A DNA stretch of 64,000 bases. It comes from an uncultured Acidobacteriota bacterium. GTDB lineage: Bacteria; Acidobacteriota; Thermoanaerobaculia; Multivoradales; UBA5704. Of this stretch, positions 35,358 through 44,691 are shown one piece after another (the stretch's first letter is position 1; each line of letters starts with the position of its first letter). The stretch spans positions 824,074 to 888,073 of the forward strand of contig CAVWNC010000004.1 in the NCBI GenBank assembly GCA_963756455.1, written 5' to 3'. The translations under genes and the position numbers were made by a program. The notes below the pieces were generated by a model. The model saw only the letters and a program-made list of their open reading frames with translations. It was not told the origin of the DNA and made no database searches.

Positions 35358-35480
35358 TCAGAGCGGGAATGGGGAAAGCACAACCCGAAACCCTATGTAG
35401 TCGCGCCGGTAGTTCGGGAAGCTCCAGCCGCGGGCGGCGCAGCGGACGTTCCTCGCAGCGTCGTCGAACGCCCCGCCGCG
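35358..35480 (-). repeat. DGR-type variable region VR-a
   Basis: 123 nt colinear with the other two copies; NNC codon variation. Confidence 0.8.
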
Positions 35481-41847: not shown

Positions 41848-44691
41848 AATTACGCGTAGTACTAGCGCTGATGCTTCAAATTCTTTGCGGCCATCTCCGG
41901 CCACGTAGGGATACGCCTTCTCGATGCTCCGCGTCCACTCATCGACGTTTCCGCTCATCTCCTCGCAGCCGACAGGGCTCGCTCCGCCAGGGAAGCATCC
42001 TACGCTGCTCGGCTCCCCGAGCCCCGTCTCATAAGAGTTCGCCCGGTTCGGGTCAAACTCCCGTCCCCAAGGAAAGATCCGGCCGTCCGAGCCACGCGCC
42101 GCCTTCTCCCACTCCGCCTCCGACGGAAGGAACGCCCGCAGCCTTCCCGACGCCAATCCCTCCCACATCTCGCCCCCCTCTCCCCGACGCTCGACCGCCA
42201 ATTCCCGCAGACGATCTCCCAGCCAACGGCAATACGCCATCGCCTCCGTCCAGCTCACCGCCACCACCGGGTGATTTGCCGAACCCTCCAAGCTCCGCGG
42301 GTCTCCAACTTCCCCACCCGCCGCCTCCAGGAACGCTCGGTACTGCCCCACCGTCACCGGATACCGGCCCATCCAGAAGCCCGGCAGCCCCACCTCGTGC
42401 TGCGGTAGCTCGGCGGCAAAAGCACCCGGGTCCTCCTCCTTAGTGCTCCCCATCCGAAAAGCTCCCTCCGAAACCTCGATGAACCCCACCGTCTCATCCT
42501 TCGGCAAAGACCAGCGCGTCTCGTCGAAGCGCGGGTCCCCCAGCTTAGCCAGCGTCTTGCCCGCTGCCGCCCGCTCCAGGGCCGGAAAACCTTCCGCCCG
42601 CAAGACCTCGATTAGCCATCGACGCAGCCGCTCCAGCTTCACTTCATTCGCCCGGCCCACCCGGGCGAGATCCGCCGATTCTGCGACCACCTGGCCGGCG
42701 AGAAGAACTCCCCAGAGATCCTCCGCCGACCGCCAAGGATCGTCCCGCCCCAGGTCGCACAGGGCCTCGGCCAGCGACCACGTTGTCGACCCTGCGACTC
42801 GCGCCGCCTTGGCTCCGGCAAGGAGGACCACCTCCCGCCAGCGGCCGGGGTCCTTCCGCCCAAACTCCGCCACCTCGTCCGGAAAATTCGCTCCGGTCAG
42901 GTGACAGGCCGCTAGGTACTCCTGGAAGGTTCGGTGCGGGAAGGTATAGACCCGCTGCCCGCGCGCGACCAAAAGCCCCGACCGGTCCCGGAGGTAGGCC
43001 ACGAGCTGCCCGGCATTCGCTCCGGGGTTCCGGCTGAGGTGCATCAGACCGCTCACCAGGTCCCCCTCCGCTACGTTCGCCGTTCCCTGGACCTCTGGCT
43101 GCGCCGCGTGCGCCTTGTAAGCGAGCTCCTCCAGCACCTGCCGGACGTCCTGCGGATGCACCCGCAGCCATTCCGCCAGGTTCGGCTCGACGAGCGACGG
43201 GGAACGCTCCCGCTGGTTCTCCCAGGTGCTGAGCAGCAGATCGACCGCTTCGGCGTAGAGCTGCTCCCGCTTCTCCGGCAGATTCCCCCGCCAGACGTGA
43301 AGGCTCGCCATCAGGGTCAGCAGGAGCGGCCGCTCCGCCAGAGCGAGCAGCCGCTCGTTTGTGAAGATCGCCCGCCGCAGCTGCTCGGCTCGATCTTCCG
43401 CCTTCCCTGCCGGCATCTTCCCTACGGTCACCTGCTGCTCGTACCAAGCGCCCACGAAGCCCGCGATCTGCCCCCGGCTGAACGGCGCGAGGATCGCCTC
43501 CGCGAATCCTTGCAGCCGCCAGGCCGGGTCCTGGTAGGCGTAGGTCCGGCTGGTCACCACCAGCCGGCTCGTCCCCACCGTCGTCGCGAAGTCCTGCACC
43601 GCCTGCCGGATCTGCTCCCGGCGGTGTTCGGCTTCCGGTACCTCGTCGAGGCCGTCGAGGAGGACCAGACCGCGCCCGGCCTGGAGCTCGCGCTTGAGAA
43701 CGGGGTAGAAGCCCGCATTCTCCGCCGCCACCATCTCCTGTTCGAGATATCCCCAGAGGCATTTCGCCGTCGCTCGCTCGTCGGGTGAAGCCGGCAGGGC
43801 CTTGGCCGCGAAGTCCCCCAGCACCACCCGCACCGGCAGGAGGTGCCCATGGCGCCACGGCTGGGGCTTCTTTGTAGGCTTGCCGTTCTCGTCTGGCAGC
43901 GGCAGGGTGAGCCGGCCGAGGTTCGCTTCCGCCAGGCCAAGGGCCTCGCCGGCGAGACAGAGCGCCACGAAGTTGAGGAACGTGCTCTTCCCGCTCCCCG
44001 GATCGCCCAGGAGCACCAGCCGGCTGTGCCGGTCCAGTTGCTCCAGGGCCGAGAGCGGCGTCTCTCCCCGGGCTTGCGGCAGATCCTCCTCGTGCCGCGA
44101 GGAGCGGGTCCGAAGTGCGGTGTAGACCGCGTGGAGCTTGAGCGAAGGCGCCTTCTCTCTCGCCGCCGCCGGGTCCACCCCCTGAAGCGGCAGCAACTCG
44201 GTCAGTCCGATCAGGCGGCGCAGGTAGACCTCCCGCGCGGTTTTTTCTCCCTCCGCGTTCGCCGGAACCACCCCGTGGTAGTGGTTCGTCGTGATGTCTC
44301 TCCCGGCGGCGTACCCTCCTTGCCCCGCCGCCACCGCTCCGTCTCCGACCGCCGACGCTCCGGACCCCTCGAGCTTCACCTCGATCCGGACCCCGGCACG
44401 ATCGAGGAGCCGCGCCATCTCCGGCACCAACTCCGGGTCGGCCTCCAGGATCTTCCGCACCTGCCGCCGCCAGGCGCCCCGGCAGTCCTCATCCTCCGGC
44501 GCCTGGGCCAGGTCGACCGCCGCCTCCAGGGCCGCGGACCGCGCCTCGATCGCCGGCCGAGCTCCCTCCCAGAGATTCTGGAGCTCCTCGGAGACTCCTT
44601 CGCCAGCGCCGTGACCATCCGCCTTCAGCAGAGGGGGCAGTACCGGCGCCAGAGCCGCCGCCAGGGCCTCAGCGATCCGAGCGATGTCCAA
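41725..44691 (-). CDS. NLR-like protein 1: helical N-domain, amyloid-like motif, NACHT, FGE/CLec (intact)
   Basis: TTG at 44691 after AGGAGGAG; same NACHT and FGE motifs as its paralogs. Confidence 0.9.
   Translation of the reverse strand: [988 protein letters not shown]

What the first reader, a model, noticed from the sequence alone, without database searches (positions are those of the whole stretch)
35358..44691. Tandem array of three NLR-like receptors whose ligand-binding tips carry a DGR hypermutation signature, with no RT or template found in the window
Seen: three head-to-tail NACHT-FGE/CLec paralogs end in colinear 123-nt segments (35358-35480, 38680-38802, 41725-41847). Between VR-a and VR-c I count 19 mismatches, 16 at codon positions 1-2, with third-position C nearly always kept (GAC/TTC, AAC/TAC, GGC/AAC, AGC/CAC, TAC/GGC, CGC/CTC, GAC/GTC, TAC/TCC). 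Neutral drift would give the opposite pattern. The tail TTTCGGGTTGTGCTTTCCCC is identical in all three, and the last copy is followed by CTCTG repeats and a hairpin. Known: DGRs mutate template adenines (AAC to NNC) in CLec/FGE C-termini, and such sensors fused to NACHT are described in multicellular bacteria. Inferred: these are remote targets of a template reading roughly [34 protein letters not shown], giving a mobile element an evolvable immune-receptor bank that relies on a DGR elsewhere.
Basis: partly seen in the sequence, partly recalled or inferred. Interest (0 to 1): 0.92.

Follow-up and report, generated by a model that had tools for sequence, protein, structure and literature searches.

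The report
Orphaned DGR targets in NLR-like receptor genes
Three neighbouring bacterial immune-receptor-like genes end in tips that were once rewritten by a mutagenic retroelement, but this genome has lost that retroelement, so the tips now look frozen and two of the three genes are broken.

Summary
Three minus-strand NACHT + FGE/C-type-lectin genes (c 41725-44805, intact; b 38680-41695 and a 35358-38659, each with a frameshift) end in colinear 123-nt segments. VRa and VRc differ at 19 sites, 16 of them at codon positions 1-2. The DGR reading of these tips holds. A relative in the same family (G061) carries an avd-TR-RT cassette whose template translates [34 protein letters not shown]. Of its 27 adenines, 22 fall on sites that vary among the window's three tips (Fisher p = 1.6e-10). 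Synonymous change is depleted in the tips (2 of 28 unchanged-residue codons differ, against 50 of 126 upstream). "A DGR elsewhere" fails: the 8.94-Mb, 99.3%-complete genome holds no template. Its only DGR-type RT is a truncated, frameshifted relic about 33 kb away, beside FGE genes of a different scaffold, and no Avd was found. In G061 the cassette lies between the orthologues of genes b and a; here only 20 nt separate them. I read the tips as orphaned, frozen variable regions in a defence island. I saw no evidence of a mobile element. This is a new member of a known kind (Doré et al. 2024), of moderate interest. Read-level polymorphism could not be tested.

The parts
41725..44805 (-). Gene c: intact NACHT(STAND)-FGE/CLec protein. 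The ORF is 1026 aa; the likely start is near 44691. Walker A is GDPGSGKST and Walker B is [10 protein letters not shown].
   Evidence: ORF and translation. Pfam FGE-sulfatase 5.9e-46; NACHT 8.9e-8, 32.6 bits against a cut-off of 26.7. PDB sequence relatives are FGE-fold proteins.
41725..41847 (-). VRc: variable region of gene c. It has no private change at non-adenine template positions.
   Evidence: 22 mismatches to the G061 TR over 108 nt. 17 are at TR adenines; 4 of the other 5 are in all three VRs and the fifth (position 45) in VRa and VRc only.
38680..41695 (-). Gene b: NACHT-FGE paralogue split into two overlapping frames by one extra G near 40675. It is the orthologue of G061 target t1 (68% aa over 341).
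   Evidence: A contig of a ~90-93% identical relative in run X1 lacks one base at 40671.
38680..38802 (-). VRb: variable region with about 8 private changes at non-adenine positions, many at third codon positions (drift).
35358..38659 (-). Gene a: NACHT-FGE paralogue split by a 2-nt insertion (or 1-nt loss) near 36098. It is the orthologue of G061 target t2 (76% aa over 698).
35358..35480 (-). VRa: variable region with 1-2 private non-adenine changes.
38660..38679 (-). The 20-nt b-a intergenic spacer. In G061 about 1.9 kb of avd-TR-RT lies between the orthologues of b and a.
   Evidence: Junction sequences, orthology, G061 layout.
35270..35357 (-). CTCTG-rich element and GC-rich hairpin downstream of the last gene. 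It is conserved downstream of both G061 targets and is probably a terminator (inference).

Best explanation
The array encodes three paralogous STAND/NACHT NTPases with an uncharacterised N-terminal module and a C-terminal FGE-type C-type-lectin sensor. The last ~108 nt of each sensor is a genuine DGR variable region. After the paralogues had diverged, all three tips were overwritten by mutagenic retrohoming from one template repeat very like that of relative G061, which randomised template-adenine positions (AAC to NNC). The cognate avd-TR-RT core has since been lost: in G061 it sits between the orthologues of genes b and a, and here those genes are 20 nt apart. No other working DGR exists in the genome. 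The tips are therefore frozen, germline-fixed specificities. Gene c is intact with a pristine VR. Gene a is frameshifted, and gene b is frameshifted with a drifting VR. Shown: the domain architecture, the adenine-site pattern, the synonymous depletion, the absence of TR, intact RT and Avd from the assembly, and the synteny gap. Inferred: deletion rather than never-present; that the proteins act as ligand-triggered NLR-like defence sensors; and that the frameshifts are real rather than assembly errors.
For: (1) Pfam finds FGE-sulfatase (E ~1e-44 to 1e-46) and NACHT/nSTAND3 in all three genes. (2) Across 108 nt, the three VRs against the G061 TR give 22 variable sites at TR adenines, 11 variable at non-A, 5 invariant A and 70 invariant non-A (odds ratio 28, p = 1.6e-10). 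For VRa-VRc, 16 of 18 mismatches are at TR adenines. (3) Synonymous depletion and third-base retention in the tips (2/28 against 50/126; 1/12 against 43/78). (4) G061 has a canonical cassette: an RT with IGNLTSQ and YVDD, an Avd, and a TR with 18/18 and 17/17 substitution mismatches at adenines against two VRs. Its target ends [11 protein letters not shown] plus an identical post-stop tail. (5) Gene a matches G061 t2 at 76% aa, gene b matches t1 at 68%, and c is equidistant. G061 order is t1-avd-TR-RT-t2; window order is c-b-[20 nt]-a. (6) No TR in the own genome by blastn, nhmmer --max or seven relatives' TRs. (7) All 19 PF00078 hits have QGxxxSP, the group-II type. Brt, the G061 RT and the G069 RT find only one DGR-type locus. 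It is N-terminally truncated and read across at least 3 frames. No Avd was found. (8) Private non-A changes are VRc 0, VRa 1-2 and VRb ~8, matching which genes are broken.
Against: The assembly is in 4 contigs, so a plasmid, phage or unassembled repeat carrying a TR and RT cannot be excluded. VRc has no private non-adenine change, so its last rewriting was recent and could be ongoing. The frameshifts in a, b and the RT relic could in principle be assembly errors. A ~90-93% identical relative lacks the extra base in gene b, which fits either a recent mutation or an error. No raw reads were available, so polymorphism at adenine sites was not tested. The coincidence of variable codons with template AAC codons alone could reflect shared ligand-contact positions. 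The argument rests on adding the within-codon and synonymous tests. The G061 TR is from another genus, and 5 fixed differences show that the lost template was not identical to it.
Confidence: 0.72

Rival explanations
1. One reading: the three tips are live remote targets of a working DGR that lies elsewhere, on DNA missing from this assembly such as a plasmid, prophage or collapsed repeat.
For: Remote targets are real in this system. G061 has a third VR of the same scaffold on another contig, and remote targets more than 100 kb away are described (Wu et al. 2018, passages seen). VRc is pristine at non-adenine sites, and all three VRs keep the VR-type 3' flank CCCCATTCCCGCTCTGA seen in active VRs of relatives.
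Against: No TR, Avd or intact DGR-type RT is found in 8.94 Mb at 99.26% completeness with no N. The syntenic slot for the cassette is contiguous and empty. A viral-contig scan for the scaffold found 0 matches. Two of the three genes are frameshifted and VRb has drifted.
Confidence: 0.13
2. The DGR-type RT at C4:~898.7-899.2 kb is intact in reality, its frameshifts being assembly errors, and it services the array through an unrecognised template.
For: It is the only DGR-type RT in the genome. It is 42% identical to the G061 RT over 118 aa, lies ~33 kb from the array, and has an LGGFLSH motif-4 and MDDLVLFADD. Trans action is known for degenerate loci (Doré et al. 2024, passage).
Against: It needs at least 3 frame changes in ~1 kb and lacks the first ~70 residues, while neighbouring ORFs of 1140 and 1786 aa are open. 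Its two flanking FGE targets use a different VR scaffold (nhmmer E = 0.45 against the array model). Those two targets are not a TR-VR pair: 19 of 44 mismatches involve no A. No TR of any scaffold was found.
Confidence: 0.05
3. No DGR was ever involved. Diversifying selection on ligand-contact residues, plus 3' gene conversion among tandem paralogues in a high-GC genome, mimics the pattern.
For: The FGE scaffold RGG..F...R.A.R....P..R....GFR is common to non-DGR FGE proteins. Only 6 of 80 homologous loci from other phyla (77 of them with the VR covered) have a TR within their flanks. GC3 near 0.8 favours NNC codons.
Against: Gene conversion would also homogenise the variable codons. Selection does not explain third bases kept in 11 of 12 replaced codons against 35 of 78 upstream, nor non-C third bases kept across all three (NNG at codon -32, NTA at -12). 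The orthologous genes in G061 are demonstrably TR-templated.
Confidence: 0.03

Closest known systems
DGR-diversified STAND/NACHT-CLec 'antigen sensors' of multicellular bacteria (Thiohalocapsa PB-PSB1 DGR 3 and 6, RT clade 5D; Doré et al. 2024, PMC10907252; abstract, section 12 and passages read)
   Same: Central NACHT/nSTAND NTPase, a single C-terminal FGE-type CLec domain carrying the VR, duplicated targets, and N-terminal extensions without known domains. The genes are embedded among conflict-system genes (caspase, WD40, peptidases).
   Different: In PB-PSB1 the 'degenerate' loci coexist with one complete locus per class that can act in trans. Here no complete locus of any class was found in the genome. 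Whether this genome's family is in their data set is unknown, because the supplements are closed.
   Same: Orthologous targets (76% and 68% aa), the same VR scaffold at DNA level (103 of 108 positions identical or at adenines for VRc), the same post-stop tail, and the same CTCTG/hairpin element.
   Different: G061 keeps avd, the TR and an intact RT between the two targets, and has a remote third VR. The window has a third tandem paralogue and no core.
Bordetella phage BPP-1 Mtd/TR/Brt prototype (AY029185; annotation seen)
   Same: Adenine-specific TR-to-VR mutagenesis at the 3' end of a CLec-fold ligand-binding protein. The G061-type RTs are 36-46% identical to Brt.
   Different: The host is cellular and chromosomal rather than a phage tail fibre. 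The targets are intracellular STAND NTPases. No RT or TR is present in this genome.
Bacterial NACHT (bNACHT) and Avs anti-phage STAND proteins (listings of 10.1101/2022.07.19.500537 and PMC13581612 seen only; function as summarised in Doré et al. section 12)
   Same: Tripartite layout: N-terminal module, NACHT NTPase with intact Walker A/B, and a C-terminal sensor.
   Different: The sensor is an FGE/CLec domain rather than TPR or other repeats. PADLOC gave only marginal P-loop hits to PtuA models (E ~6e-4), so the genes are not members of a catalogued defence family. The effector is unknown.

Membership tests
DGR target (variable region) | VR at the 3' end of an ORF, within a C-type-lectin/FGE fold | tested here: met
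   The FGE-sulfatase Pfam match runs to within 6 residues of the stop in all three genes. FGE-fold PDB relatives were found.
DGR target (variable region) | Differences confined to template-adenine positions | tested here: met
   Tested against the orthologous TR of G061. 22 of 27 TR adenines are variable among the three VRs, against 11 of 81 non-A positions (p = 1.6e-10). For VRa-VRc, 16 of 18 mismatches are at A sites. VRb adds ~8 non-A changes.
DGR target (variable region) | Cognate template repeat in the same genome | tested here: not met
   blastn with word size 7, nhmmer --max to E = 100 and seven relatives' TRs find only the VRs themselves and a fourth paralogue's tail.
Complete DGR | Intact DGR-type reverse transcriptase (motif 4 IGxxxSQ; motif recalled, then seen in the G061 RT) | tested here: not met
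   All 19 PF00078 hits are QGxxxSP. Brt, the G061 RT and the G069 RT hit only a truncated, multi-frame relic at C4:898686-899214.
Complete DGR | Accessory protein Avd | tested here: not met
   PF05635 gives one sub-threshold hit (29 bits against 33.8) that is not beside any RT. The G061 Avd gives no tblastn hit at E <= 0.01. Some DGRs lack Avd (Wu et al. 2018, passage).
DGR target (variable region) | VR-specific 3' flank (IMH-like) that differs from the TR's 3' flank | tested here: inconclusive
   The window VRs end ...GTGCTTTCC|CCATTCCCGCTCTGA like the G061 VRs, whereas the G061 TR continues ...TCC|ACGCTCTTCGG. The function of this flank was not tested.
NACHT / STAND NTPase (NLR-like) | NACHT P-loop domain with Walker A and B | tested here: met
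   Gene c scores 32.6 bits (cut-off 26.7) and gene a 26.2 bits (just under). nSTAND3 hits are sub-threshold. GxPGSGKST and [10 protein letters not shown] are present in all three genes.
NACHT / STAND NTPase (NLR-like) | N-terminal effector or adaptor domain of a known family | tested here: not met
   No Pfam family at E <= 5 that is credible. No other copy of the N-terminal 90 aa in the genome. The Atlas gave only unnamed small proteins and a 13%-share HetE-N lead.
Anti-phage defence system | Protection against phage shown experimentally | not testable with these tools
   Only context is available: caspase, CHAT, Avs1b-like and DruE-like neighbours.
Catalytic formylglycine-generating enzyme | Catalytic cysteine pair and copper site | not tested
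   Only a fold-level sequence match was made.

The most novel reading that the evidence does not exclude
In this bacterial family the DGR core behaves as a transient visitor, and the receptor genes are kept 'DGR-ready'. Targets with the conserved VR scaffold and VR-type 3' flank persist in many genomes, while the avd-TR-RT core is patchy. In the samples searched, 12 of 24 family genomes hold homologues, and none of those 12 shows a DGR-type RT. DGR-type RTs appear in 7 of 92 family genomes. G020 has 5 VRs, no TR and no DGR-type RT hit. Non-adenine VR positions are about 94% identical between genera, whereas the genes are about 70% identical. On this reading, lineages alternate between bursts of somatic-like diversification and long phases of germline-fixed receptor arrays. 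This genome is a fully 'post-DGR' state, with at least 13 fossil VR-like tails of four scaffolds and one dead RT.
Probability: 0.18. Interest if true: 0.72.

Novelty: new member of a known kind. Interest (0 to 1): 0.42.

Why it matters
DGR surveys start from the reverse transcriptase (my general knowledge, not checked here), so genomes that keep the diversified receptors but have lost the diversifier go unseen by them. This locus shows that such orphaned variable regions can be recognised from sequence alone. The marks are changes at adenine sites, kept third bases and missing synonymous change, and they can be tied to a lost template through a relative. The locus gives a natural before-and-after pair (G061 against this genome) for asking what happens to hypervariable NLR-like sensors once hypermutation stops. 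Here one copy is preserved intact and two decay. It also warns against reading a DGR signature as evidence of current hypermutation.

Tried and rejected
The read test for polymorphism failed for lack of data. The look-up of sequencing runs gave a single run (X1, a soil metagenome kept as Logan contigs, share 0.08). Laying it showed contigs of a ~90-93% identical relative only. There were no raw reads, so nothing can be said about minor alleles at the VRs. Parts without cover mean nothing.

Pattern scans for the VR/TR scaffold gave little. Metagenome contigs returned one VR-bearing gene without a TR in the 9.5 kb held. Viral contigs returned 0.

The related-loci scan of genome contigs returned 80 loci from other phyla and left out the window's own family. 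It gave no name for the organism, and I did not establish its taxonomy. Only 6 of the 80 loci (3 had no VR coverage) had a TR-like partner in their flanks.

The hairpin as a DGR cruciform is not supported: fold energies are not better than shuffles (z = 0.02 to 1.7). I read the structure as a probable terminator.

The N-terminal module has no Pfam family, no second copy in the genome and only weak Atlas leads. I rejected one of the three VRs acting as template for the others, because their mismatches are not adenine-specific in either direction. The FGE protein at 16518-18836 has no VR-like tail. The paper search was badly framed and returned nothing relevant. No print search settles whether wholly RT-less genomes with fossil VRs have been described (searches; passages; supplements closed).
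Full report
WHAT IS THERE. The window is G000:C4:824074-888073 of an 8.94-Mb, 68% GC genome in 4 contigs with no N. Its completeness is 99.26%. 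On the minus strand lie three head-to-tail genes. Gene c (41725-44805, 1026-aa ORF) is intact. Gene b (38680-41695) is read in two overlapping frames because of one extra G near 40675. Gene a (35358-38659) is read in two frames because of a 2-nt insertion (or 1-nt loss) near 36098. All three carry a NACHT/STAND P-loop with Walker A (GxPGSGKST) and Walker B ([10 protein letters not shown]). All three also carry a C-terminal FGE-sulfatase domain (E = 5.7e-44 to 5.9e-46) that runs to the stop codon. The nearest solved relatives by sequence are FGE-fold proteins. The first ~200 residues match no Pfam family and have no other copy in the genome. The paralogues are old: nucleotide identity is mostly 0.5-0.8 in 60-nt windows.

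CHECK OF THE OBSERVATION. Two tests place the pattern beyond drift in a high-GC genome. For a against c, codons with an unchanged residue differ in 2 of 28 within the last 40 codons against 50 of 126 upstream (p = 7e-4). Replaced codons change their third base in 1 of 12 against 43 of 78 (p = 0.004). The a-b and b-c pairs go the same way, more weakly. Amino-acid replacement is not denser in the tip (12 of 40) than upstream (78 of 204). What marks the tip is therefore how it varies, not how much.

THE TEMPLATE EXISTS, BUT IN A RELATIVE. Searching 92 genomes of the same family with the BPP-1 RT Brt separated two groups. Group-II-type hits were 27-30% identical. DGR-type hits were 36-46% identical and came from 7 genomes. 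I fetched all 7 loci, and each held a repeat pair whose mismatches fall almost only on one partner's adenines. The counts were 18/18, 17/17 substitutions (plus a 2-nt gap), 16/17, 21/21, 16/16, 13/13, 16/18 and 17/19. Five of the seven use the window's scaffold.

The closest is G061. Its TR translates [36 protein letters not shown]. Its RT has IGNLTSQ and YVDD, and an Avd-like ORF precedes the TR. Its second target ends ...[11 protein letters not shown] with the same post-stop bases as the window genes. Over 108 nt, 22 of the 27 G061-TR adenines are variable among the window's three VRs, against 11 of 81 other positions (odds ratio 28, p = 1.6e-10). VRc differs from that TR at 22 sites, 17 of them adenines. 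Four of the other five recur in all three window VRs; the fifth (position 45) recurs in VRa and VRc only. I read these as fixed differences of the lost local template.

One caveat applies. Template AAC codons sit at ligand-contact positions, so codon-level coincidence alone could be structural. The third-base and synonymous tests above are what exclude plain selection. Gene conversion is excluded because it would also erase the variable codons.

THE DGR IS GONE FROM THIS GENOME. No template was found by blastn (word size 7), which recovered only the three VRs at E <= 1e-30. nhmmer --max with a three-VR profile added only the tail of a fourth, diverged paralogue on contig C3 and a weak match to another FGE gene. 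Seven relatives' TRs used as queries found nothing more. All 19 PF00078 hits are of the QGxxxSP type.

Brt, the G061 RT and the G069 RT detect one DGR-type locus only, at C4:898686-899214. That is about 10 kb beyond the window and ~33 kb from the array. It lacks the first ~70 residues and is spread over at least three frames. It is flanked by two convergent FGE genes whose 140-nt tails are 79% alike, with the same position-1/2 pattern but a different scaffold. Neither tail is a template for the other. No Avd was found.

WHERE IT WENT. Gene a is the orthologue of G061 target t2 (76% aa over 698, against 57% to t1). Gene b is the orthologue of t1 (68% against 52%). Gene c is equidistant. G061 reads t1-avd-TR-RT-t2. 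The window reads c-b-[20 nt]-a, and the ribosome-site and start region of a aligns to that of t2. The simplest reading is loss of the ~1.9-kb core from between b and a. This is an inference, since the opposite polarity (insertion in G061) is not formally excluded.

Decay fits this reading. Private non-adenine changes number 0 in VRc (intact gene), 1-2 in VRa and about 8 in VRb. A contig of a ~90-93% identical soil relative lacks the extra base of gene b. No raw reads exist for a polymorphism test.

CONTEXT. Pfam and PADLOC scans of 19 large ORFs show a defence or conflict island. It holds two caspase-domain proteins, a CHAT protease, a 1545-aa WD40 protein, DUF900, another FGE protein without a VR-like tail, an Avs1b-like 2226-aa STAND, a DruE-like 1786-aa helicase and an HNH nuclease. 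None of these scans found an integrase, transposase or phage gene.

HOW IT MOST LIKELY WORKS. This part is inferred by analogy with bNACHT/Avs and the proposal of Doré et al. (section 12). The CLec tip binds an invader-derived ligand. The NACHT NTPase then oligomerises, and the unknown N-terminal module triggers or recruits an effector. In the past a DGR randomised about 16-18 residues of each tip. Now each tip is one fixed specificity.

COMPARISON AND NOVELTY. DGR-diversified NACHT/nSTAND-CLec targets, duplicated targets, remote targets and 'degenerate' loci lacking machinery are all described. I saw the abstract, section 12 and passages of Doré et al. 2024 and passages of Wu et al. 2018. What differs here is that I found no complete locus of any class in the genome. 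The same seems true of relative G020: it has 5 VRs and no TR, and its Brt hits are 27% identical, in the group-II range. Two of its VRs differ at 14 adenine against 6 other positions of a same-genus TR.

VERDICT. Interest is moderate, at 0.42.

Noticed in passing
G000:C4:~897324-902709 (locus L013 5325-10710), about 10-15 kb beyond the window's right end: A dead DGR. The RT is DGR-type (LGGFLSH, MDDLVLFADD), N-terminally truncated and spread over at least 3 frames. It lies between two convergent FGE-domain genes (331 aa and 1140 aa) whose last 140 nt are 79% alike, with differences mostly at codon positions 1-2. No template was found.
   Followed up: partly
G000: C1:837064, C1:1601293, C1:1624662, C3:2764680, C4:761309, C4:761638, C4:2151366; also C4:1079939: A second family of fossil VR-like FGE tails (...GFRVVLPAGPE), with seven copies. 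Among the six coding copies, 24 of 26 adenines of relative G069's TR are variable (p = 1.8e-5), with much added drift. C4:761309 is non-coding and richer in A, so it may be a decayed template. One further tail of a third scaffold lies at C4:1079939.
   Followed up: partly
G000:C3:2493580-2496525 (locus L012 3581-6526, + strand): A fourth, more diverged NACHT-FGE paralogue (981 aa). It keeps the ...[10 protein letters not shown] tail and the post-stop motif, but its VR scaffold is no longer recognisable.
   Followed up: partly
window 35481-35540, 38803-38862, 41848-41907 (codons -59 to -41 of each gene): The ~20 codons just upstream of each VR have AT-rich third positions (GC3 0.35, against ~0.8 for the gene). 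They are partly conserved at the nucleotide level in G061 and in metagenome locus L173. This is unexplained.
   Followed up: partly
window 4934-7090, 9280-13917, 14403-15968, 19534-22416, 22709-29389, 46979-52339, 61774-62607: Defence-island content: two caspase-domain proteins, a WD40 giant, CHAT, an Avs1b-like STAND (PADLOC 2.5e-20), a DruE-like helicase (3.4e-85) and an HNH nuclease in a lower-GC stretch (58-62%).
   Followed up: partly
G000, e.g. C1:489353-490726, C3:2614170, C4:376811, C4:648443, C4:3344758: Five group-II-intron-type RT copies with identical scores and 457-aa frames, further 502-aa copies, and two copies sharing the same frameshift (C4:1652027-1653401 and C4:2787371-2788429).
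   Followed up: no
L086 (G061:C106) 8692-8814 and 10756-11250/11204-14050: In the relative with the intact DGR, VR1 carries a 2-nt indel that frameshifts target t1. Target t2 is split into two overlapping ORFs near its G/A-rich N-terminal repeat. Broken targets therefore occur beside a live-looking core too.
   Followed up: no
G020 (same family, 98% complete): C158:20619, C56:3063, C78:3553, C134:8839, C45:14408: Five VR-bearing homologues, no extra TR-like match, and Brt hits only in the group-II range (27% identity). This looks like another orphan-target genome.
   Followed up: partly
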